Both the position numbers and the translations under genes were made by a program. The notes below the pieces were generated by a model. That model saw only the letters and a program-made list of their open reading frames with translations, had not been told where the DNA came from and searched no databases. 56,268 nt of DNA from Gammaproteobacteria bacterium (GTDB taxonomy: Bacteria; Pseudomonadota; Gammaproteobacteria; Ga0077536), in the NCBI GenBank assembly GCA_016874535.1, contig VGUA01000001.1, positions 107,188-163,455 of the forward strand, given 5' to 3'. This document shows positions 8,694-28,452 of this stretch, piece by piece. Numbering within the stretch: position 1 is the stretch's first letter; each line of letters opens with the position of its first letter.

Positions 8694-9578
8694 ATGAAGG
8701 AATTCGAGATCAGCGACAACCAGGTTGAGGACTTCGAACGCGACGGCTTCATCGTCGTTGACCGCATCATCAGCGACGAAGAGGTCGCCTTGCTGCGTGA
8801 GCGCTACGATCTCCTGTTCAAAGGGCAATGGGAAACAGGCCTCGTGCCGGACGAGGTCAACTGGCAGGAGGGGCGCGATCCCCCAGACAGCACGCGCCAG
8901 ATCTGCAACGGTTGGAAGTCTGATCGTTATGTGGCGGGTGTGATCCTCCAGGAGTCAATCGGGCGCGCCTGTGCAAAGCTCGGCCGCTGGCCCGGCACCC
9001 GCCTCAGCCAGGACAACATTCTGTGGAAGCCACCCGGCGGCAAGCCGCTGGGTTTCCATCAGGATTCCTCTTATGAGCTCTGGACCACGCTCCCGGACTG
9101 GGTGAGTTGCTGGATTGCGCTGGACGACACCACCGCCGAGGGTGGCACCGTTGAATACGTGCGTGGTTCGAATCATTGGGGCCGCTCGGGCATGATTGAG
9201 CAGTTCCACGCGCCCGAAAACCCCGTGAAGGATCTCGACAAGGCGGCGGCCGCAGCGGGCGTGAAGACGATTGAGCGCGTGCCCATCGTGGTGAAGGCCG
9301 GAGGCGGTGCGTTCCACGGCGGATGGACCTGGCACGGATCCGACATCAATCGGCGCGATGTACCGCGCCGCGCGATAGTGGCGCACTGCATGTCGAGCGA
9401 GACGCGCTTCCACCCCACCTACGTTGGCTACATCTACAGCCGCTACAAGCGGTTCGGCGATGACACGATGGACGAGTCCTTCTTCCCGGTGACGTGGCGG
9501 CAGGATGGCTATCGATCGCCTTTCATAGATCCCTATTCCGCGCGACGCATCACCTGGGGCGAAGCGCTACCAACATGA
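8694..9578 (+). CDS. Phytanoyl-CoA dioxygenase (PhyH) family Fe(II)/2-oxoglutarate dioxygenase
   Basis: FERDGFIVV, FHQD (HxD), CWIALDDTTAEGGTVEYVRGS, WHGS and RRA motifs. GGAGG RBS. Confidence 0.88.
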   Translation: MKEFEISDNQVEDFERDGFIVVDRIISDEEVALLRERYDLLFKGQWETGLVPDEVNWQEGRDPPDSTRQICNGWKSDRYVAGVILQESIGRACAKLGRWPGTRLSQDNILWKPPGGKPLGFHQDSSYELWTTLPDWVSCWIALDDTTAEGGTVEYVRGSNHWGRSGMIEQFHAPENPVKDLDKAAAAAGVKTIERVPIVVKAGGGAFHGGWTWHGSDINRRDVPRRAIVAHCMSSETRFHPTYVGYIYSRYKRFGDDTMDESFFPVTWRQDGYRSPFIDPYSARRITWGEALPT

Positions 9579-10294
9579 GGCCGCCCCGACTGGGCTTGCT
9601 CGCTTGCGACAGGCTGTGGGAGCCACTGCGCTCGGCCCACGGCGACTACGCCGAGATGTATTCCGCACTGTTGCGCGCCGCCGGTGCCGAGTTCGAGCTG
9701 GTATCGTGGGCGGTATATGCCGGCGAACTTCCTGCCAGCAGCGAGGCGTGTGATGCTTGGCTCGTCTCCGGATCACGTGCATCGGCCTTCGAAGATCGAC
9801 CGTGGATCGCTCCGCTGTTGGAGTTTGTGCGCGCCACCCACGCGACCGGCGTGCGTCAGGTGGGGATCTGCTTCGGTCACCAGGTGCTGGCCCACGCCCT
9901 TGGCGGCCGGGTCGAGCGTGCAGCGGGTGGCTGGGGGCTTGGCAATATCGAACTCACGCTGCGCGATCGCGCGGGCGTTCCCTCGAATGTTCCGGATCGT
10001 CCGCAGCTGTTCATGGCGCATCAGGATCAGGTGGTGAAACTCCCGCCGGGTGCCATGTGGCTCGCCGAGGCACCGCACTGTCCCCATGCGATGTTTGCAC
10101 TGGGCGGATCCACGCTCGGCATCCAGCCACATCCCGAATTCTCGGCCGCCTTCATGCGCGACATGACTCTGGACCAGTCCCTCAACCTTCCGGAGCCGCT
10201 GCGGGCGCAGGCGCTTGCGAGCTATGCGGCGCCGGTCGACAGCCTGGTGGTCGGGCGCTGGATCGCGCAATTCCTCGGCTTGCAGCGGGCCTGA
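9575..10294 (+). CDS. Class I glutamine amidotransferase-like protein (probable gamma-glutamylamide hydrolase)
   Basis: GICFGHQ nucleophile elbow, HQDQV and QPHPEF. ATGA coupling to the PhyH gene. Confidence 0.88.
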   Translation: MRPPRLGLLACDRLWEPLRSAHGDYAEMYSALLRAAGAEFELVSWAVYAGELPASSEACDAWLVSGSRASAFEDRPWIAPLLEFVRATHATGVRQVGICFGHQVLAHALGGRVERAAGGWGLGNIELTLRDRAGVPSNVPDRPQLFMAHQDQVVKLPPGAMWLAEAPHCPHAMFALGGSTLGIQPHPEFSAAFMRDMTLDQSLNLPEPLRAQALASYAAPVDSLVVGRWIAQFLGLQRA

Positions 10295-10377
10295 GTCGAA
10301 TGCACACCGGGGATGGGGCCGGGCGACCTTTCCGACGGCAAGGCCGGGCGCCGTGGTCCTGCGTGCCGGGACGTCTC

Positions 10378-11604
10378 TCAGCGCTTGAGCGTGGACAGTG
10401 CCTCGAGCAGCCGGTCGATCTCGGTCGGGGTGTTGTAGAGCGACACGCCAGTGCGCAGCAGGCCTCCGCGATCGACAAGTTGCAGCGACTCCAAGACCGC
10501 CATGGCGTAGAAGTGTCCGTGCCAGACCTGGATGCCGCGGCCAGCGATCTGCGCGGCGGCATCTGCGGCAGTGATGCCATCAATCGTGACCGACACCGTG
10601 GGCGCGCGCGTGACTTCCGCGCCCGGCCCCCACACGGTGATGGCGGGCAGCGTGGCGAGCCCCGCCAGATAGCGCTGCGCGAGGGTGTGTTCATAAGCAG
10701 CCAGCCCCTGCATGGTGTTTCGCAGACGCTCGCGCCGGCTTCCCCCGGGTGACAGACCGGCCAGATAGTCCACTGCTGCGCGCACGCCCATCAGGGCCGG
10801 ATGATTCGGGGTGCCGGTCTCGATTCGATGGGGCGCCGTGCTGTACTGGGCGCGCAGACGGTCTGTCTCCAGCTCATCCAGCAGTCCCGGCTTTGCATAC
10901 AGCACGCCGATATGCGGGCCATGGAATTTGTAGGCCGAACACAGCAGAAACTCGCAGTCGATGGCTTGCACATCGACAGGAAAATGCGCGGCATAGTGCA
11001 CGGCGTCGCATACCAGCCACGCGCCCACCGCACGCGTCAGCGCGCGAATCTCTGCGATCTCCGGCACCGTTCCCAGCGCATTCGAGGCGAGCGTCGTCGC
11101 CACCAGTTTGACGCGCGGGGTGAGCTTCGCGCGGAAGTCTTCCATGTCGAGCGAACCAGCACTGGTGATCGCCACCTCCTTCACCAGCACTCCATGCGCT
11201 GCCAAGGTCTGCCACGGACCGCGATTCGCTTCGTGATCAAGCCGCGTGATAAGCACTTCATCACCGGCCTTGAAGCGCCGCGCAAACGCCCGCGCGAGCG
11301 CAAAGTTGAAGCTCGTCATATTCGCGCCGAACGAGATGCAGGACGGGCTCTCCGCGCCCAGGAAATCCGCCATCGCGGCACGTGCCGCCTCGACCTCCAA
11401 TCCGACTTCCCGCGAACTGGCGAAGGCACCGCCCGCATTCACATTGCAGCGGTGATAGCCATCGGTCATGGCGTCAAGCACGGCCTGCGGCACCTGCGTG
11501 CCACCGGGTCCGTCGAGAAAGGCCAGCGGTTGCCCCTCGTGCTGGCGCAGCAGAGCGGGGAAATCGATGCGCGCGCGTTCGGCATCAGCGACGGTAAAGG
11601 GCAT
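10378..11604 (-). CDS. Cysteine desulfurase-like PLP enzyme (class V aminotransferase)
   Basis: FLDGPGGTQVP, LDHEANRGPW, DAVHYAAH, CSAYKFHGPHIG and IETGT motifs. GGAG RBS before ATG 11604. Confidence 0.88.
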   Translation of the reverse strand: MPFTVADAERARIDFPALLRQHEGQPLAFLDGPGGTQVPQAVLDAMTDGYHRCNVNAGGAFASSREVGLEVEAARAAMADFLGAESPSCISFGANMTSFNFALARAFARRFKAGDEVLITRLDHEANRGPWQTLAAHGVLVKEVAITSAGSLDMEDFRAKLTPRVKLVATTLASNALGTVPEIAEIRALTRAVGAWLVCDAVHYAAHFPVDVQAIDCEFLLCSAYKFHGPHIGVLYAKPGLLDELETDRLRAQYSTAPHRIETGTPNHPALMGVRAAVDYLAGLSPGGSRRERLRNTMQGLAAYEHTLAQRYLAGLATLPAITVWGPGAEVTRAPTVSVTIDGITAADAAAQIAGRGIQVWHGHFYAMAVLESLQLVDRGGLLRTGVSLYNTPTEIDRLLEALSTLKR

Positions 11605-11671
11605 CAGGCTTGCTCCTGCGAACTGGCAGTGGTTTTGGTCGAGTGAAGTAGCGGCCTCGCTGCGATTTGCG

Positions 11672-11700
11672 TTGGCGACCCCCGTTCCCAGCCATATACT
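11672..11700 (+). promoter_or_regulatory. Candidate sigma70 promoter for the TdnQ-like gene
   Basis: TTGGCG-N17-TATACT, 32 bp upstream of ATG 11733. Confidence 0.4.
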
Positions 11701-11732
11701 CAACTGGCCCATCCAAACGCAAGGGGACGGTC

Positions 11733-13208
11733 ATGAGCTCGATTCAGGACGGCAGCGTTGGTCAGGTCGATTTCATCACCCGCCATGGGCTCTACTCCGA
11801 TGAGCAACGCGAGGCCATTTCCCGCCTCAAGGCCGAGATCGAGCGTCTCGGGCTGCGCACCATCCGCATCGCCTGGTGCGATCAGCACGGACTGGTGCGC
11901 GGCAAGCATGTGATGGCGCACGACTTCCTGCTGGCACTGCGCAACGGCATCGACTTCCAGACCGCCACGCTCTTCATGGACACCACCAACAATCTGGCCG
12001 TACCGATGTTTGCAAAACAGGGCGGTGGAATCGGTGTCGCTTCGCTCTGCGGTGGGCCGGACGCCATCCTTGTGCCGGATCCGCTCACCTTTCAGGTGCT
12101 GCCCTGGGCGAAGAGCACCGGTTGGATACTGTCAGAGATGTATCTTAACAGCGGCGAGCCCATGCCCTTCGACACGCGCGCGCTTTTCAAGCGTCTGCTT
12201 GCGCAGAACCGCGCCAAAGGCTACGACTGGATTGGCGGTCTCGAGGTAGAGTTCTACATCTGCAAGCTCGAGGATCGCATGCTGCAGCCCGAGCAATCAG
12301 GCTGGCCGCCGGATCCACCGAAAGTCTCGGCGATTGCCCATGGCTTCCAGTACCTCACCGAAGAGCGGCAGGACGAAATCGATCCCATCCTGCAGATGCT
12401 GCACGACAACCTCTCACAGCTTGGCCTGCCGCTGCGCACGATGGAGGACGAATGGGGTCCGGGCCAGTGCGAGTTCACTTTTGATCCCACGCGAGGGGTC
12501 ACCAGCGCAGACCAGATGGTGCTGTTTCGCACGGCCACCAAACAGTTGTGCCGTCGGCACGGCTATCACGCCACCTTCATGACCCGTCCGGGTCTGCCCA
12601 ATTTCTTCTCCAGCGGCTGGCATTTGCATCAGTCGCTGTGCGATGTGAACAGCGGCGCCAACCTCTTTGCCAACATGGGCGACAGTGATGAGGTGCTCTC
12701 GCCGCTTGGCCGGCATTTTGTGGGCGGCCTGCTGGCGCACGCGGCGCCGGGTTGTGTGTTCTCGACACCCACCATCAACGGCTACAAGCGTTATCGCCCC
12801 AATTCCTTCGCCCCGGATCGCATCACCTGGGCCAGTGAAAATCGTGCGGCGATGATTCGCGTGCTTGGTGGGCCCGGCGATCGTGCTTCGCATATCGAGA
12901 ATCGCGCCGGCGAACCCTGCGCCAATCCCTATCTCTACATGGGCTCGCAGCTGGTGGCCGGCATGGACGGCGTGGCGCGCAAGCTCGACCCCGGCCCGCT
13001 GGAAGAAACGCCCTACGAATCGGCCAACGCCAAGCTGCCGCGCAGTCTCATGGAAGCCACTGCCGCGCTACGCGAGAGCAAGGTGTTTCGCGAGGGCTTT
13101 GGCGATGCCTTCGTTGACTACATGTTGTTGTTGAAGCAGAGCGAGATCGATCGCTTCCTGCAGCATGTGACCGACTGGGAGCATCGCGAATATTTTGAAA
13201 TGTTCTAG
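11733..13208 (+). CDS. Glutamine synthetase-like ligase of the TdnQ/AtdA1 (gamma-glutamylanilide synthetase) type
   Basis: DFITRHGLYSDEQREA...IRIAWCDQHGLVRGK, VPDPLTFQVLPWAKSTGW, EDEWGPGQCEFTFD, SGWHLHQSL and IENRAGEPCANPYLY match the recalled AtdA1/TdnQ layout. Confidence 0.85.
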   Translation: MSSIQDGSVGQVDFITRHGLYSDEQREAISRLKAEIERLGLRTIRIAWCDQHGLVRGKHVMAHDFLLALRNGIDFQTATLFMDTTNNLAVPMFAKQGGGIGVASLCGGPDAILVPDPLTFQVLPWAKSTGWILSEMYLNSGEPMPFDTRALFKRLLAQNRAKGYDWIGGLEVEFYICKLEDRMLQPEQSGWPPDPPKVSAIAHGFQYLTEERQDEIDPILQMLHDNLSQLGLPLRTMEDEWGPGQCEFTFDPTRGVTSADQMVLFRTATKQLCRRHGYHATFMTRPGLPNFFSSGWHLHQSLCDVNSGANLFANMGDSDEVLSPLGRHFVGGLLAHAAPGCVFSTPTINGYKRYRPNSFAPDRITWASENRAAMIRVLGGPGDRASHIENRAGEPCANPYLYMGSQLVAGMDGVARKLDPGPLEETPYESANAKLPRSLMEATAALRESKVFREGFGDAFVDYMLLLKQSEIDRFLQHVTDWEHREYFEMF

Positions 13209-13235
13209 GCCGCCGCGTGATCCGGAGGACACGAC

Positions 13236-13745
13236 ATGAGCAATTGGCGAGGCAATAAATTCGGTGGTCTGTCGCCGAGTGAATTGGATGAATTTCTCCA
13301 AGGTCCGTGGCTGGCGCGACTCGCCTGCCTCAAGCCCGACGGTTGGCCGTATGTGGTGCCGGTGTGGTACCACTGGGACGGTGCGGCCTTCTGGGTGGTT
13401 GGACGCGCGCGATCCGAGTGGTGTCTTTACATGGCGAAGGACGCGCGGGTCTCGCTGGTGGTGGATGAACCGACACCCCCCATCCGCAAGGTCATCTGCG
13501 AGGGGCTCGCGGAGGTGGTGGAGGAATCCGTCGGACCTTATCTGCCGTCCGGCGAGAAATCCTTGTGGAACAAGCTGGGTGAAGAACACACCGGCCCGCG
13601 CTATCTCGGTGAGCGCGCGCAGGAATATCGCGGATCAGTGAACGTGGAACCCTGCTGGACCTTCCGCATCGTGCCGCAGAAGCTGACCACCTGGCAGGGC
13701 TTCGGCTGGCACACCCGCTACAAGCACCCCGAACTCCACCCCTAA
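13236..13745 (+). CDS. Pyridoxamine 5'-phosphate oxidase-like (split-barrel flavin-binding) protein
   Basis: LSPSELDEFL...ARLACLKPDGWPYVVPVWY...DARVSLVVD. GGAGG RBS. Confidence 0.8.
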   Translation: MSNWRGNKFGGLSPSELDEFLQGPWLARLACLKPDGWPYVVPVWYHWDGAAFWVVGRARSEWCLYMAKDARVSLVVDEPTPPIRKVICEGLAEVVEESVGPYLPSGEKSLWNKLGEEHTGPRYLGERAQEYRGSVNVEPCWTFRIVPQKLTTWQGFGWHTRYKHPELHP

Positions 13746-13830
13746 CCGGAAATTAGTGACAGTTACCCTATTTCCCGTAATTGGTGACAGTTACCTGATT
13801 AACGGAAATAGGGTTACTGTCACCAATTCT
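13746..13830. repeat. Composite cluster of three hairpin (REP-like) units, orientation F-F-R
   Basis: GGAAATTAGTGACAGTTACCCTATTTCC (13748-13775), AATTGGTGACAGTTACCTGATT (13779-13800) and GGAAATAGGGTTACTGTCACCAATT (13804-13828). Confidence 0.92.
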
Positions 13831-13858
13831 TGCACCTATTCCCCGGGGGAGTGCCGGA

Positions 13859-15088
13859 GTGCCTGAGCAGTCAACCGCGTGGGCGCAAGACACACCGCCT
13901 TCGCTGGAGGCAGCTCTGCGCCGTATCGATGCCATCCGGCCGGGCGACTACGCGCGCACGCGCAATCATCTGCAGGGCGCGGTCACGGGCTTGTCTCCGT
14001 ATGTCACCCACGGGCTCATCACCCTCCGAGATGTGCTGGAGCGGGTGAATCAGAAGACCGCGCTCGCGGTCGGCCACAAGCTCGTCTATGAATTCGGCTG
14101 GCGGGAATATTTCCGGCATGTGTGGGCCTGTGAGTCGGACGGGATTTTTTCATCGTTTCACGAGGGGCCATGTACGGAGCGGGACTATGCGCGCGATCTG
14201 CCGGCTGACATCCGGGAGGCCCGCACGGGCGTGCCTGCGATCGATCAGGCCGTGCGGACGCTTTATGCGAGTGGCACCCTTCACAACCACGCCCGCATGT
14301 GGCTCGCAAGCTATGTGGTCCATCTCCGCCATGTGCACTGGCGCGCCGGAGCGGACTGGATGGTTGCGCACCTGCTGGATGGTGACTTGGCGAGCAATCA
14401 TCTCAGCTGGCAGTGGGTGGCGGGCACAGCAAGCCACAAACCCTATCTCTTCAATGCCGAGAATGTCGCGCGCTATGCACCGGCCTTCTGGCATAGCCCG
14501 GGCTCAGTGATTGATCAGTCTTACGCCGTTTTGGATGCAGTAGCCCGCGGGGCGCGCACGCCGGAGATGCGTGCAGGTGATGTGGTGGCGCAATCCTGCT
14601 TTGAAGTGGGCTTTGGTCTCGAGCCCATGCTGCAAGGGCAGCCCCCGGCTGGCCTTGGGCCTGCCACAGAAGTGCTGTCAGACACTGAGCGTTTCGCCGG
14701 AAGGGAGGTGTGGCTGGTCCATCCCTGGGCGCTGCGCGCTCCACCTGCTTCCCTCGCTTCCGATGCCGTGGTGCTCGGAATCTACTTGCAGGAATATCAC
14801 GCAACTTGGCCGTGGCCGGAGTCGCGCTGGCGCTGGGTGGCTGCGGCGATGGCTGCCGTCACGCCGCAGCGCTGGTTCGTCAATGCAAACGTGCTGGCGA
14901 GTGCATTGGCTGGCGCCGCCTGCGTGAGGACGGTCTCGGATCCGCATATCGACCGTTGGCTTGAACCGTTTGTGCAGCTGGACCCACCAACGCGACTATT
15001 CCCCGTCGTCAACCGCCGCTGCACCAGCTTTTCGCAGTGGTGGACGCGAGCGACGCGCGGACTGGAGCGCGCAGAGGAGTTGCTGTGA
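13859..15088 (+). CDS. DNA photolyase with N-terminal FAD-binding domain (inverted domain order, NewPHL-like)
   Basis: YARTRNHLQGAVTGLSPYVTHG, EFGWREYF, GTLHNHARMWLASY and LLDGDLASNHLSWQWVAGT all lie in the N-terminal half of a 409-aa protein. Confidence 0.82.
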   Translation: MPEQSTAWAQDTPPSLEAALRRIDAIRPGDYARTRNHLQGAVTGLSPYVTHGLITLRDVLERVNQKTALAVGHKLVYEFGWREYFRHVWACESDGIFSSFHEGPCTERDYARDLPADIREARTGVPAIDQAVRTLYASGTLHNHARMWLASYVVHLRHVHWRAGADWMVAHLLDGDLASNHLSWQWVAGTASHKPYLFNAENVARYAPAFWHSPGSVIDQSYAVLDAVARGARTPEMRAGDVVAQSCFEVGFGLEPMLQGQPPAGLGPATEVLSDTERFAGREVWLVHPWALRAPPASLASDAVVLGIYLQEYHATWPWPESRWRWVAAAMAAVTPQRWFVNANVLASALAGAACVRTVSDPHIDRWLEPFVQLDPPTRLFPVVNRRCTSFSQWWTRATRGLERAEELL

Positions 15089-15486
15089 GCAAAGCACGCG
15101 AGGACGAACAGCTGACAGTGTTGTATGACGGGGCCTGTCCCTTGTGCCGCCGGGAGATCTTGCATGTGAAAAACCTGGCGCAGCACCGGCCCGAGAGTGG
15201 GCTCTGCTTTCTTGATCTGAGTAGGATGGATGCAGAGCCGTTGCTGCCTTCAACAGAGCGCAGCATGCTGCTCGCGCGCTTCCACGTGCAGCGCCCGGAC
15301 GGGTCGAAAATCTCCGGCGCTGCGGCCTTTGTTGCGATGTGGCGGCGACTGCCCGGCTGGCGCTGGTTGGCGAAACTGTCCGATCTCCCGGGCATGCTGG
15401 TGCTGATGGAATGGGTCTACCGAGCATTCCTGCGGGTGCGTCCAGCATTGCAGGCCATCGCTCGTCGGCTGGACAAGTCCAAGTAG
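15085..15486 (+). CDS. DUF393 / DCC-family thiol-disulfide oxidoreductase
   Basis: TVLYDGACPLCRREI motif. GTGA overlap with the photolyase stop. Confidence 0.85.
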   Translation: MSKAREDEQLTVLYDGACPLCRREILHVKNLAQHRPESGLCFLDLSRMDAEPLLPSTERSMLLARFHVQRPDGSKISGAAAFVAMWRRLPGWRWLAKLSDLPGMLVLMEWVYRAFLRVRPALQAIARRLDKSK

Positions 15487-15584
15487 AAATGAGTGACGGG
15501 AAATGGGTGACAGTTACCCTATTTCCGTTAATTAGGTAACTGTCACCCATTACGGGAAATAGGGTAACTGCCACCCATTTCCGG
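15486..15584. repeat. Half-unit plus composite cluster of three REP-like units (F-R-R); inverted copy of 13746-13828
   Basis: GAAATGAGTGAC half-site (15486-15497), then units at 15499-15526, 15530-15551 and 15555-15582. The reverse complement of 15502-15584 matches 13746-13828 at 76/83 nt without gaps (manual count). Confidence 0.92.
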
Positions 15585-15611
15585 TACCGATAGTTTTGGG
15601 AGGGGCGCGTC

Positions 15612-16154
15612 ATGATTCGGAGCCTTTTGGCATTGTCACTGACGGCGTGGGCCGCGTTTGCTGCGGCGGAGTCTATCGACGATCTGCGCGCCCGTGCCGA
15701 GCAGGGCAGCAGCTACGCACAAGTGCTCATGGGCGTGAAGTATCACAAGGGCGATGGCGTGCCGCAGGATATGGCAGAGGCAGCGCGCTGGTCTCGGATG
15801 GCGGCGGAGCAGGGTGATTCCCGCGGGCAGTACAACCTGGGCGCCATGTACGATTCCGGCGATGGCGTCTCCCAAGACTTTGCCGAGGCCGCCGCATGGT
15901 ACCGAAAAGCGGCTGAGCAGGGAGATTCACGCGGACAATACAGTCTTGGCGACATGTACCAGCTTGGCCAAGGTGTGGATCAGAGCGATGTCGAAGCGTA
16001 TCGCTGGTTCAGCCTCGCCGCAGTGAGCGGAAACGATGACGCCATCCCCGCGATGCAACGTCTGGCACCGCAGATGACTGCTGAAGAAATCGCTGAAGCC
16101 GAGCGCCTGGCACAGGCATGGCAGCCGTTGAGGCGCGACCAAAAAAATCGGTGA
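15612..16154 (+). CDS. Secreted Sel1-repeat (TPR-like) protein
   Basis: Signal peptide MIRSLLALSLTAWAAFAAA and repeated AAEQGDSRGQYxLGxMY units. GGAGG RBS. Confidence 0.9.
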   Translation: MIRSLLALSLTAWAAFAAAESIDDLRARAEQGSSYAQVLMGVKYHKGDGVPQDMAEAARWSRMAAEQGDSRGQYNLGAMYDSGDGVSQDFAEAAAWYRKAAEQGDSRGQYSLGDMYQLGQGVDQSDVEAYRWFSLAAVSGNDDAIPAMQRLAPQMTAEEIAEAERLAQAWQPLRRDQKNR

Positions 16155-16182
16155 CAAAAATCGGTGACAGTTACCCTATTTC
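16143..16182 (+). repeat. REP-like unit preceded by a tandem half-site duplication
   Basis: AAAAATCGGTGAC AAAAATCGGTGAC AGTTACCCTATTTC. The half-site supplies the TGA stop of the Sel1 gene. Confidence 0.9.
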
Positions 16183-16207
16183 AGGCCGGCAGCCTTGGGG
16201 CCGAGAA

Positions 16208-17005
16208 ATGAACAAAAGCAGTTCGTCTGGAGAACAACGAGTTCGGATTCAAGGGCCAGACCACGACACTTCTCTGGTCTTTGATGTACGCGGTTGCGGG
16301 CGCGCTGCGCTCTATGTACATGGATGGAGCTGCAGCCGGACCGACATTGCCGCCGTTGCTGACCTGTTGGCTCCATCAAATCGGGTATACGCAGTCGACC
16401 TGCCACACCATGGGGCGTCGAGCAGCACAATTTCAAAGTGGACCATGGCAGGTCTCGGCGAGGTAGTGGCAGCGGTGGTGCGCCGACTCGGTCTTCGAGA
16501 TGTTGCTCTCATAGGGCATTCCATGGGCGCCGCTGTTGTGGTCGAGGCGGCGGCGTTGCTCGGAAGCAACGTGCGGCGAGTGATTGCCCTCGACGGCCTC
16601 AGCTATCTCAATGTCTACCCGCGTCAGGACGAAGCTTCTGTCGATGGGTTTGTCTCGCCGTTCGTGGCCAATTTCCGGGAAGCGATAAATCACTTCGTGA
16701 ACATGGCGATGCCAGGTTCGGACGAGACACTCAAACGGCACGTGGCGACGGTCATGAAGAGTGGGCCGTCCCAACATCGGGTGCCGATGCTCGCCGAGCT
16801 CCTGCGCTGGGATATGGATTCAGCGCTCGATCGACTCGTCGCGCAGATCAGCGTGCTGGCGGCGCGTCAGTTCCTTTCTGCCGAACTGGAGATCCGCTAC
16901 GGAAAACGGTTCGAGATCATTCCCACCGACCTCGGCGGCCATTTCTTTTTCATGGAGCAGCCGAGTGCAAGTGCGGAGATGCTCGAGTCGCTCCTGCGCC
17001 GATGA
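16208..17005 (+). CDS. Alpha/beta fold hydrolase
   Basis: YVHGW, AVDLPHHG, GHSMG nucleophile motif and GHFFFMEQP. Confidence 0.88.
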   Translation: MNKSSSSGEQRVRIQGPDHDTSLVFDVRGCGRAALYVHGWSCSRTDIAAVADLLAPSNRVYAVDLPHHGASSSTISKWTMAGLGEVVAAVVRRLGLRDVALIGHSMGAAVVVEAAALLGSNVRRVIALDGLSYLNVYPRQDEASVDGFVSPFVANFREAINHFVNMAMPGSDETLKRHVATVMKSGPSQHRVPMLAELLRWDMDSALDRLVAQISVLAARQFLSAELEIRYGKRFEIIPTDLGGHFFFMEQPSASAEMLESLLRR

Positions 17006-17073
17006 CATGGCGAACGGGTCCAGACTCACCACCCGGATCTCGTGAACCGTTGCCACCGACGACTCCGGGATCT

Positions 17074-17140
17074 GTGACTATTATCTGATTATCGGAAATA
17101 GGGTAACTGTCACCAATTTCAGGTGTCACCAATTTCAGGT
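17074..17140 (-). repeat. Degenerate short unit plus reverse REP-like unit with tandem half-site duplication
   Basis: Minus strand reads ACCTGAAATTGGTGAC ACCTGAAATTGGTGAC AGTTACCCTATTTCC GATAATCAGATAATAGTCAC. The half-site contains the TGA of 17135-18451. Confidence 0.88.
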
Positions 17141-18451
17141 GGCGAGGCAGTAGGCTGTGAGACGGTGGAACATCTGCAGCACGGAAAGCCAGCAGATGAG
17201 TTCGACGATGGCCTGCGGAGAGATGGCGGACTGTCGACAGCGCTCCACCACATCCGGAGTGATGCGGGCAGGCGTGGGCGCGGCGGCCCGCGCCAGATGC
17301 AATAGGGCGATCGCTGTATCGGTCATCTCCTCCACTGTGATGTCCGCTCCCGCGGCGAAGCTTCTCGCCGATGCAAGCTGCGTCTCGGAAACGCCGTGAT
17401 GAAGAGCCAGCGCCGCCATGTCTTTCGCAAGCGCTGCATTGCCGACAACTTCGGCGAAAATCGTACCGGCCAGAATCTTCTCGCCCACAGGCATCACGCT
17501 GAGTGCGGGATCCAGATTCAGGTTGAGCACCGCGGCGATAGCGCGCACGCAACGCTGGTTGACCAGGCGCCCGAGCACCGGAAAATCATGTCCGGTCTGC
17601 TGCTTGAGATAACGACCCACTTCCGGCCAACGCGATGGCACACGGCGCTGCCAGCGCACGTCCAGCAGAAGGGCGCTGGGCAGGAACCGCAGGATGCGGG
17701 CCTTGCTGACCAAGTTGTCTGCGCCGGGCGGCGGCGTGGTCTTGTCGATGGCAAGGCCCCAGCCCGCACGTCCCGGAGACCATTCGGATCCGAGGGTTGT
17801 CGTCACCTCGGCAACGGTACTCGTCTCCAGCTCCACGCCAGTGGCGTCCATGAATTTGTTCAAGAAGCCCATTGCCACTGCGCCCATGGCAATCCACTCG
17901 GCCTGTGCGCGAGGAAAGTGCGCTTCGAGCGCCGCTCGGTGCTCGGGCGTCAACTCACAGGGCACGCGACCCAGCGCAGTGGCTACCGCTACCACTGCCG
18001 CCTCCGGGGGTGATAGGGCACCTGGCCCGCGCAGAGCGGCCGCAATCGTTTCTGGCGTGGCGCCCCGGCGGAGCGCAAAGGAGCAGGTGTGGGCGGTGCA
18101 GTAGGGACAATCCGCCGCACGACTTGCCATCAGCATGGAAAGCCCAACCTGCGCCTTGGGCGCTCCCCCGATGCCGAACACCGCAGCCGGCAGGTTCATC
18201 AGGTTGGGCACCACAAGATTGTAGGTCCTGAAGGCTGGCGGCCAGATCTCGAGGTAGCGATCGCAATTGGGCACCACGCCAATCAGCGTTCGGACCAGCT
18301 CCATCAGGGCACCATAACGCCCATGGAGCACCGCCATCGGCACGACGTGCGGCAGGAGAAGCTCGGCCAGGCTGTTGGGTGCGGGGATGGCTGACCCGGT
18401 GGTGTCGCCGGAGCCCGCGGTGGATGATGAAAGCTGGGGGGAAGTTGTCAT
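17135..18451 (-). CDS. AhpD/carboxymuconolactone decarboxylase-like protein (two-domain, CxxC)
   Basis: MASRAADCPYCTAHTC motif, then LEAHFPRAQAEWIAMGAVAMGFLNKFMD and a second CMD-like repeat (QAIVELICWLSVLQMFHRL). Confidence 0.65.
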   Translation of the reverse strand: MTTSPQLSSSTAGSGDTTGSAIPAPNSLAELLLPHVVPMAVLHGRYGALMELVRTLIGVVPNCDRYLEIWPPAFRTYNLVVPNLMNLPAAVFGIGGAPKAQVGLSMLMASRAADCPYCTAHTCSFALRRGATPETIAAALRGPGALSPPEAAVVAVATALGRVPCELTPEHRAALEAHFPRAQAEWIAMGAVAMGFLNKFMDATGVELETSTVAEVTTTLGSEWSPGRAGWGLAIDKTTPPPGADNLVSKARILRFLPSALLLDVRWQRRVPSRWPEVGRYLKQQTGHDFPVLGRLVNQRCVRAIAAVLNLNLDPALSVMPVGEKILAGTIFAEVVGNAALAKDMAALALHHGVSETQLASARSFAAGADITVEEMTDTAIALLHLARAAAPTPARITPDVVERCRQSAISPQAIVELICWLSVLQMFHRLTAYCLAT

Positions 18452-18492
18452 GGCGAGCCCGCTTGGGAGATGGCGGTATCATGCCACGAGAA

Positions 18493-18587
18493 GAATTGGT
18501 GACAGTTACCCTATTTCATTCAAGATGAAACATGACGGTCAGCGGGGCTCCGGGGCGACGGAAATAGGGTAACTGTCACCCATTTCC
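18493..18587. repeat. Inverted pair of REP-like units with a ~42-bp spacer (REPIN-like)
   Basis: GAATTGGTGACAGTTACCCTATTTC (18493-18517) and GGAAATAGGGTAACTGTCACCCATTTCC (18560-18587). Confidence 0.92.
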
Positions 18588-18714
18588 AAAAAAATTGCGT
18601 TTCTTTGACAAAAAAATCACGGCGAACCACGATCCCTTGCGCCGGGGGCGTTCACGCTCTCGGCCAGCACCCACCAGGCACAACGCATCCCCCAACACGC
18701 GCAGTGAGGGTTCA

Positions 18715-20058
18715 GTGAAACGAATTCGTGACGGTCTGACCGATTGGCATCTTGAGTACTGCCGCGCGCTCGCCTTGCGGCTGCTCGGCCATGGGCCAAT
18801 CCGCGAGCCTGAGAAAGACACCTTCCACGTCAACCTCACCGACTTCCTGGCTGCGGAGGCTGGCGTGCGCAGTGCCGACATCGCGGGCGTCATCGACATC
18901 CTCGCCGTCACGCGCACGGAGTCGGGCATCAGCCATCACCGCAGCATCAACGATTATCCCAGGGAGCTGGCGCTCAATTATGGTTCGCTGGAGGAGTACC
19001 TGGCGGGTGGAGAATTCCAGGAATACGAGAGCTACGCCGCAGATCCGCTGATCGGCAATCGATGGGTGCAGAATGTGGAAGAAGCCATTCTCATGACCCT
19101 CGGGCACGAGCTCGCGCATCATGTGGTGGCGCTCCAGCGAAAGGGCAGAGATGTCAAACCCCATGGCCCCGAGTTCAAGCATTTCTATTCCCTGATACGT
19201 CGGTTCGCACTCAACCCGATGCTCGATGAGTTCGCCATGGACACCAAGCAGCGCGCCGCAGCGCGCTTCGAGACGCGGCTCATCAACAAAATCCATGCGC
19301 TGCAGAAGATGGCGACGGACGCCACCTCCAACGAGAACGAGGCGGAACGCGCGCTGGCCCAGCTGCAGGCACTGAAGAGCAAATATGGGCTCACGGATAC
19401 CGTCCTTTCAGACAGCACCAAGCCGCACGTCATCGAGCGGACAGTGCCCGTGGTGCGGCGGGAAGGCTACAAGGCGCTCAGCCACCTTTGTTGGGGCATT
19501 GCAAGATTCTGCGGCGTGGAAGCGGTGCTGCATCCAGGGCGACTGGTCAGCTGGCAGGAGATTGAACGCGGGATTCGCAAAGTGCTGTGGACGTATGACT
19601 ACGTCACCTATTTCGGCTCGACGTCCGATACCGAGATGGCCGTGTACCTCAGCGAGATGATCTTCCATTCGCTCTTTGACGAATCCGAGCGCTATCGCAC
19701 GACAGAGGCCTATCGCGAAGCATTGGCAGTCGGCCACAAAAGCCGGACCCTGGTCTTCTCCTTCCGGCGGGCCTTTGTTGCACGCATCAATCGGCGACTG
19801 GAAGAGAGCCGCAAGGCCGTGCGGGAGGAGTGGGTTGCCTCCCGCGCCGATGGACGCGAGCTCATGACCCGCAAGGACGCCACCCTGCAAGCCCTCTTCA
19901 AGCAGCGCTATCCCAGGCTGGGCGCGTTTCAGGGCGGATCATCATCCTCGACTACCATTGGTAGCGCAGACCGGGCAGGCAGATCAGCCGCAGACCGCGT
20001 GAATCTGAACCGTCCGGTGGGGCAGGCGAGGACGCTGGCGCTGGGGCATCGGCGGTAG
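18715..20058 (+). CDS. SprT-like HExxH metallopeptidase fused to a DUF2786-domain protein
   Basis: LGHELAHH...KPHGPEFK, then KIHALQKMATDATSNENEAERALAQLQALKSKYGL, YFGSTSDTEMAVYL and SFRRAFVARINRRL. GTG start after GAGGG. Confidence 0.75.
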   Translation: MKRIRDGLTDWHLEYCRALALRLLGHGPIREPEKDTFHVNLTDFLAAEAGVRSADIAGVIDILAVTRTESGISHHRSINDYPRELALNYGSLEEYLAGGEFQEYESYAADPLIGNRWVQNVEEAILMTLGHELAHHVVALQRKGRDVKPHGPEFKHFYSLIRRFALNPMLDEFAMDTKQRAAARFETRLINKIHALQKMATDATSNENEAERALAQLQALKSKYGLTDTVLSDSTKPHVIERTVPVVRREGYKALSHLCWGIARFCGVEAVLHPGRLVSWQEIERGIRKVLWTYDYVTYFGSTSDTEMAVYLSEMIFHSLFDESERYRTTEAYREALAVGHKSRTLVFSFRRAFVARINRRLEESRKAVREEWVASRADGRELMTRKDATLQALFKQRYPRLGAFQGGSSSSTTIGSADRAGRSAADRVNLNRPVGQARTLALGHRR

Positions 20059-20070
20059 GGCGGGCTCTCC
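20022..20070 (+). repeat. 49-bp direct repeat, left copy (3' end of the SprT-DUF2786 gene)
   Basis: GCAGGCGAGGACGCTGGCGCTGGGGCATCGGCGGTAGGGCGGGCTCTCC, 46/49 identical to 28376-28424. Confidence 0.93.
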
Positions 20071-20101
20071 TGTGCCGCTCGGGCCCGCCATCGATCTTCC
20101 G

Positions 20102-21475
20102 TTACGGCGCTACGCTGGGTCGCTGAGGCGATGCTCCGCCATCCTCCAGCAGCACCGCCCGGGTCGCTGCCACCATGTGATCGATGTCCGCTTCGGTGTG
20201 CGCCGTACACAGGAAGCCGAGCCGGCCGGCATAGAAGTAGAGGCCGTGGCTCAGCAAAGCTTCGTGCAGCCTGCGGATCTTGGCGTGGTCCGCGTCCTCC
20301 GCTTCGCGCGCCGAGCGGACGTCCGCCGCGGTGAAATGCAGGTGGAACAGTGATCCGAGCCCCGTCACACACGTCGGCAGGCCAAGATCCGCCACCACGC
20401 GCCGCAATCCCTCACGCGCGCGTTCACCCAGTTTCAGCAGGTGCGCCTCGCCACCCGCCTCCAGTGCACGCAAGGTGGCAAGCCCGGCAGCAAGGCTCAG
20501 CGGCAGCGCGCTGTAAGTGCCGGACTGGAACACGTAGTCATGCGGATGCGCTGTCGCCGACAGCCACTGCATGAGCTCCGCACGGCCGCCAAATGCCGCC
20601 AGCGGCAGGCCGCCGCCGATGGCCTTACCGAGGATCGTGAGATCCGGCACCACGCCGTAATGTCCCTGGCCGCCGCCCAGGCCCACGCGGAAACCCGTGA
20701 TCACTTCGTCCAGCGCGAGCACGATGCCGTGGCGCGCCGTGACGTCGCGGAGCGCATGCACGAACTCGCGTGTGGCCGGCACCGCGCCCGCGAAACCGAG
20801 CATGGGCTCCATCAGCACGATCGCCAGATCTTTGGCATGCCGTTCGATTAGCGCGCACGCGGCGTCCGCATCGTTGTAGGGCAGCACCACGGTCAGCGCA
20901 GCCAGTTCTTCCGGCAACATGCAGTGATACGGCACCCGCGCGGGCGCGGCGGCCGGACCACGCTCGTCGGCTGGCGCGGCGACGGAGACCATCACGTTGT
21001 CCGCCTGCCCGTGGTATGCGCCTTCGAACTTGGCGATCAGCTTGCGTCCGGTCGCCCGTCGCGCAACGCGGATGGCGGCCTGCACCGCTTCTGTCCCGGT
21101 GGGCAGAAAACGCAGTCGCTCCAGGCTCGGCATCATGCGCTGAATGGTTTCCGCGAGCTCGACCTGGCGCTCCGTGACGGCGATATTCGGCAGCCCTTCC
21201 CCAAGCACCGCCTGCACGGCGCTGACGATGTCCGGATGCTGGTGTCCGAGGATCGCCGGGCCTGCACCCAGCATGAAGTCGATATATGCGTTGCCATCCA
21301 CGTCGTACAGCCGTGCGCCTTCGGCGCGCGTGAGGTACAGCGGATGTGGTGCCCGCGCCTGCGAATACCCGCCCACACCGTCTGGAAACACCTGCAGTGC
21401 GCGGGCATGCAAGGCCTGCGAGCGGGCAAACGACGGGGCAGTCACGGCAAAGGGGGTGCGTTCAGGACGATTCAT
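20102..21475 (-). CDS. Class III aminotransferase (glutamate-1-semialdehyde aminomutase-like)
   Basis: YDVDGNAYIDFMLGAGPAILGH, TGTEAV, KFEGAYHG, DEVITGFR and LGKAIGGGLP motifs. Confidence 0.9.
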   Translation of the reverse strand: MNRPERTPFAVTAPSFARSQALHARALQVFPDGVGGYSQARAPHPLYLTRAEGARLYDVDGNAYIDFMLGAGPAILGHQHPDIVSAVQAVLGEGLPNIAVTERQVELAETIQRMMPSLERLRFLPTGTEAVQAAIRVARRATGRKLIAKFEGAYHGQADNVMVSVAAPADERGPAAAPARVPYHCMLPEELAALTVVLPYNDADAACALIERHAKDLAIVLMEPMLGFAGAVPATREFVHALRDVTARHGIVLALDEVITGFRVGLGGGQGHYGVVPDLTILGKAIGGGLPLAAFGGRAELMQWLSATAHPHDYVFQSGTYSALPLSLAAGLATLRALEAGGEAHLLKLGERAREGLRRVVADLGLPTCVTGLGSLFHLHFTAADVRSAREAEDADHAKIRRLHEALLSHGLYFYAGRLGFLCTAHTEADIDHMVAATRAVLLEDGGASPQRPSVAP

Positions 21476-22206
21476 GGATGGTCCTCCTCGACGAGTCTGG
21501 GGCCGGCCGCCGTGCCTGCGCGTTGCGCGACGTCGCGCACGAACGCGCGAAGCGCGCGGATGTCGGATTGTTTCTCACGCCGCGCACGCGGGGCATCATG
21601 CGCGGCGAGCGCCGCCACCAGTGCCGCATGGTTGATCCAGCTCTGATGGTAGTAATCAGGCCGCTCGCGCAGCATCACGCGAACGGCAGCAGTACAATGC
21701 GGCACACTCTTCAGGCGCAGCAGCTCGATCATCTGCAGCAGCAACGGGCTACGCGCCGCGCGATAGATGGCGAACTGGAACGCGTTGTTGCGCTCGAGCA
21801 CCGGGTGCAGGTCGCCCGCCTCGCCAGCGTTCTGCAGGCTGTCCCCCAGCACGCGGATCTCGGCGAGCTCGGCCGCGGTGATATGGCGCGCCGCGCGCGC
21901 GCAGGCCTCGCCTTCCAGCTGCACCCGCAGCGACCACACGTCCTCCGCTTCCTCGTCGCTCAGCAGCGGCAGGCGAATGCCGCGCTTCGGCATCACCACC
22001 AGCGCGTTCTCTGCGGACAGCCGTGTGATGGCCTCGCGCACCGGCATCACGCTGGTGCCGAGCTGTTCGGCGACCTGGCGGAGCGTCAGTGTGGTGCCGG
22101 GCCCGATGCGGCCGGACACAAGCGCGTGCTTCAGGCGCGCGTATGCGAGCTCGTTCAAGGTGGCATGCTCGATGGGCGCGAGCGTCGGCGGGACTGGCGT
22201 GTTCAT
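21472..22206 (-). CDS. GntR-family transcriptional regulator (FCD domain)
   Basis: LTLRQVAEQLGTSVMPVREAITRL wHTH and NNAFQFAIY...HAALVAAL FCD. ATGA overlap with the aminotransferase. Confidence 0.9.
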   Translation of the reverse strand: MNTPVPPTLAPIEHATLNELAYARLKHALVSGRIGPGTTLTLRQVAEQLGTSVMPVREAITRLSAENALVVMPKRGIRLPLLSDEEAEDVWSLRVQLEGEACARAARHITAAELAEIRVLGDSLQNAGEAGDLHPVLERNNAFQFAIYRAARSPLLLQMIELLRLKSVPHCTAAVRVMLRERPDYYHQSWINHAALVAALAAHDAPRARREKQSDIRALRAFVRDVAQRAGTAAGPRLVEEDHP

Positions 22207-22215
22207 GGCCCGATG

Positions 22216-22245
22216 TTGACATCTGTGATCACAGATTTCTAGACT
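22216..22245 (+). promoter_or_regulatory. Sigma70-like promoter with a 16-bp perfect palindromic operator
   Basis: TTGACA (22216-22221), 18-nt spacer, TAGACT (22240-22245). ATCTGTGATCACAGAT (22221-22236) fills the spacer. Confidence 0.75.
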
Positions 22246-22282
22246 CCGGGCCAAGTGCACACAAACGGGGGCGAGGCACGGT

Positions 22283-24382: not shown

Positions 24383-24392
24383 GGAACCCCCG

Positions 24393-26198: not shown

Positions 26199-26268
26199 GC
26201 ACACACGAGGGACAGACCCGGTTTGCCCCGGGAATGTGGGTTGCCCTCTTTTTCCACTGGAGTTGACG

Positions 26269-28424: not shown

Positions 28425-28452
28425 AAACGCCGTTTAGAAAGGCGGCGATCTG

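What the first reader, a model, noticed from the sequence alone, without database searches (positions are those of the whole stretch)
13746..18587. Cassette-like array of unrelated genes delimited by a 28-bp hairpin repeat: candidate REP/REPIN-based gene-capture system
Seen: five repeat clusters holding about 14 full, short or half copies of GGAAAT[G/T]GGTGAC-A-GTTACCCTATTTCC, an AT-rich imperfect palindrome. They occupy every inter-unit gap from 13.7 to 18.6 kb, and I found none elsewhere in the 56 kb. They separate four functionally unrelated cargo units in mixed orientation: photolyase+DUF393, Sel1 protein, alpha/beta hydrolase and AhpD-like protein. Each unit starts only ~25-41 bp from a repeat. 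Known: REPs and REPINs are processed by RAYT (HUH Y1) transposases, and integrons stockpile single genes between hairpin attC sites. These repeats lack both the GTAG tetranucleotide of classic REPs and the attC cores. Inference: an integron-analogous array assembled in trans by a HUH-type enzyme recognising these hairpins.
Basis: partly seen in the sequence, partly recalled or inferred. Interest (0 to 1): 0.88.

Follow-up and report, generated by a model that had tools for sequence, protein, structure and literature searches.

The report
REP hairpin repeats with their transposase
The 28-bp hairpin repeat is a new family of an ordinary kind of bacterial repeat (REP/REPIN) whose own transposase gene lies elsewhere in the genome, and it crowds a poorly conserved stretch of chromosome without any sign that it captures genes.

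Summary
Ten cores (<=1 mismatch) fill all five inter-unit gaps at 13.7-18.6 kb and occur nowhere else in the window. The repeat is not private to this locus: the genome holds 88 copies at 35 sites, and the array runs on upstream of the window. One intact HUH/Y1 gene (RAYT, contig C11) is flanked on both sides by these repeats, the classic REPtron layout. Among 12 genus-mates, only the two with a 90%-identical RAYT carry the repeat in number. More distant RAYTs carry variant repeats. There is no integron integrase. I found no unit-skipping forms in four independent assemblies. Gene order around the RAYT is conserved while repeats come and go, and repeat-less relatives shuffle the same genes too. 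So the HUH link is supported and gene capture is not. Two features are unusual: sites are strongly concentrated in poorly conserved regions, and one synteny break sits exactly at a repeat edge. Verdict: a new member of a known kind, of modest interest.

The parts
13236..13745 (+). PNPOx-like gene. It is the last gene of a conserved GS-like+PNPOx pair and forms the left border of the array in the window.
   Evidence: Pfam PF01243. The pair is 76-84% identical in protein in G010, G005 and G011, and the DNA match ends at about 13739.
13748..13829 (.). REP cluster 1, three copies in the order + + -.
   Evidence: Cores at 13755, 13783 and 13812. Folds as ssDNA at -21.3 kcal/mol, z -6.4.
13859..15088 (+). 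Photolyase-related gene with an FAD_binding_7 domain only.
   Evidence: Pfam PF03441, residues 78-202. The G006 homologue is only 62% identical and lies in a different, REP-free context.
15037..15486 (+). DCC1-like (DUF393) thiol-disulfide oxidoreductase gene, overlapping the previous gene.
   Evidence: Pfam PF04134.
15498..15583 (.). REP cluster 2, three copies in the order + - -.
   Evidence: Cores at 15506, 15535 and 15563. Folds at -30.4 kcal/mol, z -8.3.
15612..16154 (+). Sel1-repeat protein gene.
   Evidence: Pfam PF08238, three repeats.
16143..16184 (+). REP cluster 3, one full '+' copy preceded by a half copy.
   Evidence: Core at 16163. The half copy is seen in the sequence.
16208..17005 (+). 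Alpha/beta hydrolase gene.
   Evidence: Pfam PF12697 and PF00561. No homologue above 37% identity in the metagenome scan, and no match in genus-mates.
17064..17140 (.). REP cluster 4, one full '-' copy with a degenerate partner and half copies.
   Evidence: Core at 17102. Partner and half copies are seen in the sequence.
17135..18451 (-). CMD/AhpD-like gene.
   Evidence: Pfam PF02627. Homologues are 66% identical in G006 and G011, in other contexts.
18492..18587 (.). REP cluster 5, an inverted pair (+ ... -) with a 57-nt spacer. This site is shared with G006 and G007.
   Evidence: Cores at 18498 and 18568. Folds at -26.1 kcal/mol, z -7.7. In alignment A1 homology with G006/G007 starts at the outer edge of the left copy.
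18595..20058 (+). SprT-like/DUF2786/DUF7168 gene, the right border of the array. In G006 and G007 its homologue lies 2-4 kb from the RAYT.
   Evidence: Pfam. 73% identical in protein in G006 and G007.

Best explanation
The repeat is a REP/REPIN family: a 26-28-nt imperfect palindrome that mostly sits as head-to-head doublets or nested '+...-' groups forming long ssDNA hairpins. Its cognate enzyme is a REP-associated tyrosine transposase (RAYT, HUH/Y1 fold), encoded once on contig C11 and itself flanked by the repeats (a REPtron). The stretch at 13.7-18.6 kb is a REPIN-dense part of a flexible, poorly conserved chromosome region. The repeats colonised the intergenic gaps between accessory genes that were already there. 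They did not bring the genes in. Shown here: the repeat family, its hairpin geometry, the flanked RAYT with its catalytic motifs, REP-RAYT co-occurrence and co-divergence, regional concentration, and enrichment near the RAYT in a relative. Inferred: the RAYT cuts and rejoins the single-stranded hairpins and copies REPINs preferentially to nearby gaps. This builds dense neighbourhoods around its gene. Such sites persist where intergenic insertions are tolerated. Recombination between the many near-identical copies later moves blocks, so that some synteny breaks fall at repeat edges.
For: Repeat family: 53 exact plus 35 one-mismatch cores at 35 sites, with 0 matches to the reversed-pattern control. 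Polarity: 27 of 27 sites that hold both orientations have every '+' copy before every '-' copy. Hairpins: single unit -7.2 kcal/mol (z -3.3), clusters -21 to -30 kcal/mol (z -6.4 to -8.3). Enzyme: there is one PF01797 hit in the genome (44.6 bits, cut-off 23). The 221-aa protein has NHVHF (HUH) and RYVECNP (Tyr) motifs. Its best NCBIfam hit is REP_Tyr_transpos. It aligns with E. coli TnpA_REP, PDB 4ER8, with HUH, WQ and Y-x3-N matched. Repeats lie at C11:10411 and 10478 upstream and at 11240, 11269 and 11348 downstream. The same '+ | RAYT | + - -' layout is seen in G007. Co-occurrence: of 12 genus-mates only G006 (33 exact cores) and G007 (37) carry the repeat in number, and only they have the 90%-identical RAYT. 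The other ten have 0-1 copies. Co-divergence: the 58% RAYT of G019 has inverted pairs of a variant core just upstream; the 55% RAYT of G043 has the exact core beside it, with variant copies on both sides; G022 has another variant. Enrichment near the RAYT: in G019, 13 of 29 variant-REP sites are on the RAYT contig and 6 lie within +-10 kb of the gene, against about 0.13 expected if uniform. In G006/G007 the homologue of the window's SprT-like border gene lies 2-4 kb from the RAYT. Repeats come and go without changing gene order: the B|GST gap holds 3 copies in G006, 2 in G007 and 0 in G000, while A-B-GST-RAYT-LLM stays collinear at 87-94% protein identity. Published frame, from passages read: a single tnpA_REP flanked by its REPs is called a REPtron, and some subclasses lack GT[AG]G (PMC6006769). 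REPIN clusters sit beside each RAYT in SBW25 (PMC3116915).
Against: The protein scores 69.7 bits on NCBIfam REP_Tyr_transpos, below that model's cut-off of 80. The repeat lacks the GT[AG]G or CGTC tag of most REPs. Two long-read MAGs (G041 with 52 cores, G042 with 57) carry the same core but no cognate RAYT was found in them. G042 has only a 38%-identical Y1 gene with no repeat nearby. So the repeat can exist without the enzyme, or the enzyme was missed. In G000 the window's array is at least 38 kb of contig away from any RAYT, so closeness to the RAYT is inferred from relatives only. Colonisation alone does not explain why homology with G006/G007 stops exactly at a repeat edge. No activity of the enzyme was tested.
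Confidence: 0.8

Rival explanations
1. The repeats act as rearrangement hot spots. The many near-identical REP clusters serve as substrates for homologous or illegitimate recombination, with or without RAYT nicking. This shuffles blocks of accessory genes, so the mosaic of unrelated units is partly caused by the repeats. This adds to the best explanation rather than replacing it.
For: At the one repeat site shared by G000, G006 and G007, homology begins exactly at the outer edge of the left copy. The DNA beyond it is unrelated: CMD/AhpD-like gene in G000, small genes plus LLM plus RAYT in G006/G007. The DNA match of the conserved GS-like+PNPOx pair ends about 10 bp before cluster 1. Repeat-rich stretches are the least conserved. 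By my hand tally of the tables, at >=75% identity C1:84-104 kb matches 0 nt in G006 and about 3.4 kb in G007. The repeat-free controls match 6.0 and 12.0 kb (C1:20-40 kb) and 11.5 and 8.6 kb (window 22000-41999).
Against: Only one junction could be examined at nucleotide level. Repeat-less G010, G005 and G011 also give the GS-like+PNPOx pair different neighbours in each genome, so shuffling does not need the repeats. Species in this genus are far apart (about 70-80% DNA identity), and G006 and G007 are fragmented (about 260 and 490 contigs; 90% and 74% complete), so cause and effect cannot be separated. E-value thresholds differed between the three conservation searches.
Confidence: 0.3
2. This is the first reader's model: an integron-like gene-capture system in which a HUH enzyme excises and inserts gene units bounded by the hairpins.
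For: A cognate HUH/Y1 enzyme exists. Every inter-unit gap in 13.7-18.6 kb holds a repeat. The cargo is functionally unrelated and its homologues in the closest relatives are much more divergent (55-73% protein identity) than core orthologues (87-94%). One break sits at a repeat edge.
Against: No integron integrase: the best TIGR02249 score is 80.6 bits against a cut-off of 265, and the hits are Xer-like. Geometry is wrong for a unit bounded like a REPIN: each gene block is flanked by '-' on its left and '+' on its right, the reverse of the '+...-' unit. Units are in mixed orientation and hold 1-6 genes. No unit is seen twice or in two repeat-bounded contexts. The photolyase+DCC1 pair of G006/G007 lies in a repeat-free context. 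Repeat-adjacent genes differ only slightly in composition (median GC3 0.734 vs 0.755, p 0.02). The same repeat family in G041, G042 and G019 is mostly isolated doublets 3-50 kb apart, not cassette arrays.
Confidence: 0.05
3. The hairpins are kept by the host for a local function, such as transcription terminators or insulators, mRNA 3'-end stabilisers or protein-binding sites between independently regulated accessory genes. Their density would then reflect selection, not transposition bias.
For: The repeats form stable hairpins and sit between genes in tandem, convergent and divergent gaps alike. One site is conserved in three species that are only about 73% identical in the adjacent protein. 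Roles of REPs in mRNA stability and protein binding are described in the literature (PMC3184786, passages read).
Against: Two of the 12 sites on C1 lie between divergent starts, where a terminator has no use. Presence or absence varies freely in conserved gaps. No expression data were examined.
Confidence: 0.1

Closest known systems
REP/REPIN-RAYT systems and REPtrons (E. coli TnpA_REP with REP/BIME; Pseudomonas fluorescens SBW25 REPINs; Stenotrophomonas REPs)
   Same: A short extragenic imperfect palindrome in tens of copies, mostly inverted doublets that form hairpins. One intact Y1/HUH gene per repeat family, flanked by forward copies on its N-terminal side and inverted copies on its C-terminal side. 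Repeat and enzyme are inherited together and diverge together. The published descriptions were read as passages.
   Different: The unit is AT-rich in a 63% GC genome and has no GT[AG]G or CGTC tag. Copy number is low (88). Sites are concentrated at kb scale: 23 of 35 have a neighbour within 5 kb, whereas SBW25 spacing beyond 200 bp did not deviate from random (PMC3116915). Multi-copy sites are 'n plus copies then m minus copies', not the alternating order of BIMEs. The protein has a roughly 80-aa C-terminal extension and scores below the NCBIfam equivalog cut-off.
Atypical REP-like structures of TnpA_Y1 subclass 2.6 and class 3 (Quentin et al. 2018, PMC6006769)
   Same: Y1 genes flanked by repeated secondary structures that lack GT[AG]G and fold weakly, with further copies in the host genome (passages).
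   Different: This protein has the Y-x3-N motif and the WQ pair of E. coli TnpA_REP, not the Y-x4-Q of class 3. I could not assign a subclass because the paper's supplementary tables were not available to me.
Integrons and CALINs (attC arrays)
   Same: Hairpin-forming sites between unrelated, mostly single genes. Recombination acts on folded single strands in both kinds of system.
   Different: No IntI integrase and no attC core. Sites occur at both ends of units and as inverted groups. Units have mixed orientation and several genes. The associated enzyme is HUH/Y1, not a tyrosine recombinase.
MITE-bounded mobilisation units (the IMU elements flanking a defective integron, described in PMC3184786)
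   Same: This is the known precedent for genes moved by flanking copies of a small non-autonomous repeat (passage).
   Different: Here I found no duplicated unit, no target-site duplication and no evidence that any unit moved.

Membership tests
REP/REPIN-RAYT system (REPtron) | A short imperfect palindrome, repeated many times, in extragenic space | tested here: met
   88 cores at <=1 mismatch in 35 sites, and 0 hits to the reversed control pattern. All 12 sites on C1 lie in gaps between crude gene calls, a few touching the ends of longest-ORF calls. 30 of 1,894 scored gaps hold a copy.
REP/REPIN-RAYT system (REPtron) | Inverted doublets (REPINs) able to form hairpins | tested here: met
   27 of 27 mixed-orientation sites are ordered '+ then -'. 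ssDNA folds have z -6.4 to -8.3. 27 of 29 sites of the G019 variant are doublets about 34 nt apart.
REP/REPIN-RAYT system (REPtron) | A Y1 transposase-fold gene with HUH and catalytic Tyr, about one copy per REP family | tested here: met
   One PF01797 hit in the genome. HUH, WQ and Y-x3-N align to PDB 4ER8. A second match on C15 is a relic that stops before the HUH motif. NCBIfam REP_Tyr_transpos scores 69.7 bits, under its cut-off of 80.
REP/REPIN-RAYT system (REPtron) | The RAYT gene is flanked by its own REPs | tested here: met
   G000 has two copies upstream and three downstream. The same holds in G006, G007 and G043, and with a variant repeat in G019.
REP/REPIN-RAYT system (REPtron) | REP family and RAYT lineage co-occur across genomes | tested here: met
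   3 of 13 genomes of the genus (G000 included) have both, and 10 have neither. Exceptions outside the genus: G041 and G042 have the repeat but no cognate RAYT was found.
REP/REPIN-RAYT system (REPtron) | A 5' GT[AG]G (or CGTC) tetranucleotide at the foot of the hairpin | tested here: not met
   The consensus unit holds none of these tags on either strand. This feature is not universal: published subclasses lack it (PMC6006769).
REP/REPIN-RAYT system (REPtron) | The enzyme cleaves and rejoins single-stranded REP DNA | not testable with these tools
   This needs biochemistry.
Integron / CALIN | An integron integrase (IntI) | tested here: not met
   The best TIGR02249 score is 80.6 bits against a cut-off of 265. 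The four matches belong to two Xer-like genes on C19 and C130.
Integron / CALIN | attC sites with conserved cores, one per cassette, all in one orientation | tested here: not met
   The unit has no GTTRRRY or RYYYAAC core (read). Sites are inverted groups and units have mixed orientation. No attC covariance model was run.
IS200/IS605 insertion sequence | The transposase lies inside a multi-copy element bounded by left and right subterminal hairpins | tested here: not met
   There is one intact gene copy plus one relic. The repeats are about 40 times more numerous than the gene.

The most novel reading that the evidence does not exclude
The REPIN-dense neighbourhood that grows around this RAYT acts as a gene-shuffling zone. 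Blocks of accessory genes would be exchanged at repeat edges, through RAYT nicking of the hairpins or recombination between the near-identical clusters. On this reading a domesticated Y1 transposase and its repeats organise a flexible-genome compartment. The window's array would be the displaced half of such a neighbourhood, since in G006/G007 its border gene lies 2-4 kb from the RAYT.
Probability: 0.1. Interest if true: 0.75.

Novelty: new member of a known kind. Interest (0 to 1): 0.3.

Why it matters
REPIN-RAYT systems are usually described from cultured Enterobacteria, Pseudomonas and Stenotrophomonas, with GC-rich, GTAG-tagged repeats spread along the chromosome. This is an AT-rich, untagged family from an uncultured freshwater lineage. 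The 21-mer scan hits carry titles of Gammaproteobacteria and Pseudomonadota MAGs. Its sites pile up near the RAYT and in poorly conserved DNA. That makes two open questions testable in natural populations: whether RAYTs act preferentially close to their own gene, and whether REPIN clusters promote rearrangement of accessory genes. At least 20 lake-water runs hold half or more of this stretch. For annotation, it also warns that cassette-like arrays delimited by hairpins can be ordinary REP colonisation.

Tried and rejected
1. Integron or CALIN: rejected. No IntI, no attC cores, mixed orientation.

2. Excision or unit-skipping forms: I laid contigs from four runs on 12500-20500. The only joints run from one repeat to another with sides of 24-33 nt, which the tool flags as typical of repeats or other organisms. 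They are not evidence of excision. Contigs also drop rare variants, so absence is not shown either.

3. Close strains for precise gain or loss: the metagenome scan with the hydrolase found only relatives at <=37% identity. The species-level genome collection holds no second strain.

4. Synteny in G041 and G042: no DNA match to window 9000-24000 at E <= 1e-15. They are too distant.

5. Foreign origin of the cargo by composition: only a slight GC3 shift (0.734 vs 0.755, p 0.02), and region GC of 62.3% against 63.4% for the genome. Not diagnostic.

6. Link to the replication terminus through GC skew on C1: no clear switch.

7. A second RAYT on C15: a truncated relic that lacks the HUH and Tyr motifs, with no repeat of this family on that contig at <=2 mismatches.

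8. The repeat in print: 0 papers hold the 13-mer or its reverse complement. The listing for 'RAYT' plus 'integron' (10 of 55 shown) gave no title proposing RAYT-bounded cassettes, and the one paper I opened treats them separately. A four-term search on REPs and synteny breakpoints found one unrelated paper. These searches cover open-access full text only.

A recount gives 30 multi-copy sites, of which 27 are mixed and 3 are same-orientation.

Full report
OBSERVATION

The repeat is in the sequence as described. The core GGTGACAGTTACC occurs 10 times at <=1 mismatch, all between 13755 and 18580. At <=2 mismatches there are 12 matches against 0.52 expected, and none of 100 shuffles reaches 12. 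The two extra matches (4900, 50017) have two mismatches and no repeat context.

The copies form five clusters that fill every gap between the units. The gene after the array carries SprT-like, DUF2786 and DUF7168 domains. Four independent lake-water assemblies reproduce the stretch. One contig of 4,406 nt covers 15335-19740 without a difference and spans four clusters, so the array is not an assembly artefact.

THE REPEAT IS GENOME-WIDE BUT CLUMPED

The assembly (3.08 Mb, 189 contigs) has 53 exact and 35 one-mismatch cores, and none for the reversed control pattern. Oriented copies give a unit of 26-28 nt: GAAAT[T/G]GGTGACAGTTACC[C/T][T/C]ATTTCC.

Merging copies within 300 bp gives 35 sites. 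Five are single copies, three hold copies of one orientation only, and 27 hold both orientations. In all 27 mixed sites every '+' copy precedes every '-' copy. Each site is therefore an inverted, often nested, hairpin-forming group. A single unit folds at -7.2 kcal/mol (z -3.3) and clusters fold at -21 to -30 kcal/mol (z -6.4 to -8.3).

Sites are strongly clumped. 23 of 35 have another site within 5 kb, against a mean of 3.1 and a maximum of 13 in 2,000 random placements. The window's array is the right part of a larger one on contig C1: 12 sites between C1:83.9 and 125.8 kb, interrupted by 16.7 kb without repeats. Other dense stretches are C11:0-11.4 kb (7 sites) and C12:7.7-13 kb (3 sites).

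THE ENZYME

The genome has one Y1_Tnp match. It is a 221-aa ORF at C11:10564-11226 with NHVHF (HUH) and RYVECNP (Tyr) motifs. It scores 43 bits on Pfam PF01797 (cut-off 23). Its best NCBIfam hit is REP_Tyr_transpos at 69.7 bits, below that model's cut-off of 80. Its only PDB relative is E. coli TnpA_REP (4ER8, E 3.6e-4), with HUH, WQ and Y-x3-N aligned.

Two '+' repeats lie 76-153 bp upstream of the gene, and a '+ -' doublet plus a further '-' copy lie downstream. This is the REPtron layout described in the literature (passages of PMC6006769; PMC3184786). A second match on C15 keeps only the first ~58 residues and breaks off before the HUH motif, so it is a relic. No integron integrase was found: the best TIGR02249 score is 80.6 bits against 265, from Xer-like genes.

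REPEAT AND ENZYME TRAVEL TOGETHER

Among 40 relatives, the exact core is frequent only in G006 (33) and G007 (37). G003 and G010 have one copy each, and the other 36 have none. G006 and G007 are also the only genomes with a 90%-identical RAYT; the next best is 58%. In both, repeats flank the gene, in the same '+ | gene | + - -' layout in G007.

The 58% homologue in G019 has inverted pairs of a variant core just upstream. The 55% homologue in G043 has the exact core beside it, with variant copies on both sides. G022 has yet another variant.

A scan of all species genomes with a 21-mer found the repeat in six MAG records titled Gammaproteobacteria, Pseudomonadota or proteobacterium. Two long-read MAGs, G041 and G042, hold 52 and 57 cores, mostly as doublets 3-50 kb apart. 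Neither yielded a cognate RAYT. That counts against a strict one-to-one link, or it reflects loss of the enzyme or gaps in those assemblies.

IS IT A GENE-CAPTURE ARRAY?

Evidence against capture:

- The block A-B-GST-RAYT-LLM is collinear in G000, G006 and G007 at 87-94% protein identity. Repeats in its gaps differ all the same: the B|GST gap holds 3, 2 and 0 copies. The repeats therefore behave as small insertions into existing gaps.
- Each gene block is flanked by '-' on its left and '+' on its right, the reverse of the '+...-' unit that looks mobile.
- Units are in mixed orientation and hold one to six genes. The upstream part of the array holds an amidase, amidohydrolases, RidA, a cytochrome c, a PQQ dehydrogenase, an FMO-like enzyme, a luciferase-like enzyme, an FkbM methyltransferase, a HepT-like protein and several unknowns.
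- The only joints in the laid contigs are repeat-to-repeat alignments with 24-33-nt sides, which the tool itself flags as unreliable.
- The photolyase+DCC1 pair of G006/G007 lies between orthologues of G000 C56:7773-8357 and C56:8459-8857 with no repeat beside it.
- In repeat-less G010, G005 and G011 the GS-like+PNPOx pair has different neighbours in every genome, so small gene blocks are reshuffled in this genus without repeats.
- Repeat-adjacent genes are barely different in composition: median GC3 0.734 against 0.755, p 0.02.

Observations that keep a weaker form of the idea open:

- Repeat-rich DNA is the least conserved. By my hand tally of the tables, at >=75% identity C1:84-104 kb matches 0 nt in G006 and about 3.4 kb in G007. 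Window 11000-21500 has no gene-sized match at that level. The repeat-free controls match 6.0 and 12.0 kb (C1:20-40 kb) and 11.5 and 8.6 kb (window 22000-41999). The second control is also collinear in G008, G005, G011 and G003. The E-value thresholds of these searches differed, and G007 is only 74% complete.
- Cargo homologues in G006/G007 are 55-73% identical against 87-94% for core genes.
- At the one repeat site shared by all three species, the pair upstream of the SprT-like gene, homology starts exactly at the outer edge of the left copy. The DNA to its left is unrelated.

WHY THE CLUMPING?

In G019, a fairly contiguous genome with an intact 58% RAYT, 13 of 29 variant-repeat sites lie on the RAYT contig. 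Six lie within +-10 kb of the gene, where a uniform spread would give about 0.13. In G006/G007 the SprT-like border gene of the window's array lies 2-4 kb from the RAYT.

The simplest reading is that REPINs of this family spread mainly to nearby gaps and build a dense neighbourhood around the RAYT. The window's array would then be a part of that neighbourhood, separated from the RAYT in G000 by a rearrangement with one end at a repeat edge. This reading is an inference. In SBW25, REPIN clusters sit beside each RAYT, but spacing beyond 200 bp did not depart from random (PMC3116915, passages). The kb-scale clumping here therefore goes beyond the textbook case.

COMPARISON AND VERDICT

The system meets the defining features of a REP/REPIN-RAYT system except the GT[AG]G tag, which published subclasses also lack. 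It fails the defining features of integrons. I could not assign a published RAYT subclass because the supplementary tables were closed. The 13-mer is in none of the open-access papers searched. I found no proposal of RAYT-bounded cassettes in the listing or in the paper read.

I rate it a new member of a known kind. A modest residual chance (about 0.1) remains that the repeat-dense zone actively shuffles accessory genes.

Noticed in passing
G041 and G042 (genome-wide; reached through loci L051 and L057): Two long-read MAGs, unrelated at DNA level, carry 52 and 57 exact copies of the same 13-nt core, mostly as inverted doublets. No cognate RAYT was found. G042 has only a 38%-identical Y1 gene (one TGA in the protein match) with no repeat within about 20 kb. 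These may be orphan REPIN populations left after RAYT loss.
   Followed up: partly
L091:1201-1806 (-), i.e. G000:C15 around 37.7-38.3 kb: A relic of a second RAYT. The first ~58 residues are 55% identical to the intact enzyme, then the frame departs just before the HUH motif and continues as an unrelated Cys-rich sequence.
   Followed up: partly
window 13859-15486: The 409-aa 'photolyase' has only the FAD_binding_7 domain (residues 78-202) and no N-terminal photolyase domain. It overlaps a DCC1-like/DUF393 gene by 52 nt. The pair is kept together in G006 and G007 in a different context, so it looks like a functional two-gene module of unknown role.
   Followed up: no
window 14102-14368: The summed contig depth is 70-195 in this bin in all four laid runs, against about 2-7 elsewhere, with loose ends at 14096, 14127, 14278 and 14323. 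A conserved FAD-binding stretch is probably recruiting contigs of other, more abundant organisms.
   Followed up: no
window 18588-18720, with L038 and L040: Upstream of the SprT-like/DUF2786/DUF7168 gene, a TTGACAAAAAA-containing stretch is conserved in three species although the protein is only about 73% identical. It may be a promoter. The true start codon is probably downstream of the longest-ORF start at 18595.
   Followed up: no
L085:18942-19796 (G000:C1:102941-103795): A HepT-like ribonuclease domain sits in a 284-aa ORF inside the upstream part of the repeat array. It could be the toxin half of a HepT/MNT pair. The ORF is longer than the domain, so it may be a fusion or an over-called start.
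   Followed up: no
L085:4055-6141 (G000:C1:88054-90141) compared with G007:C116: G007:C116 joins the orthologues of the flanking DNA directly, so a roughly 2.1-kb segment holding most of a 633-aa gene of no known family is absent there. A 71%-identical copy lies on another G007 contig. This insertion or deletion is not bounded by repeats.
   Followed up: no
L019 (G022:C39:222082-225729): Around a 51%-identical RAYT homologue, a different short motif (ATTTCGGGGACACGACAC-like) occurs 8-9 times in 3.6 kb. This looks like a third repeat variant of the same enzyme lineage.
   Followed up: no
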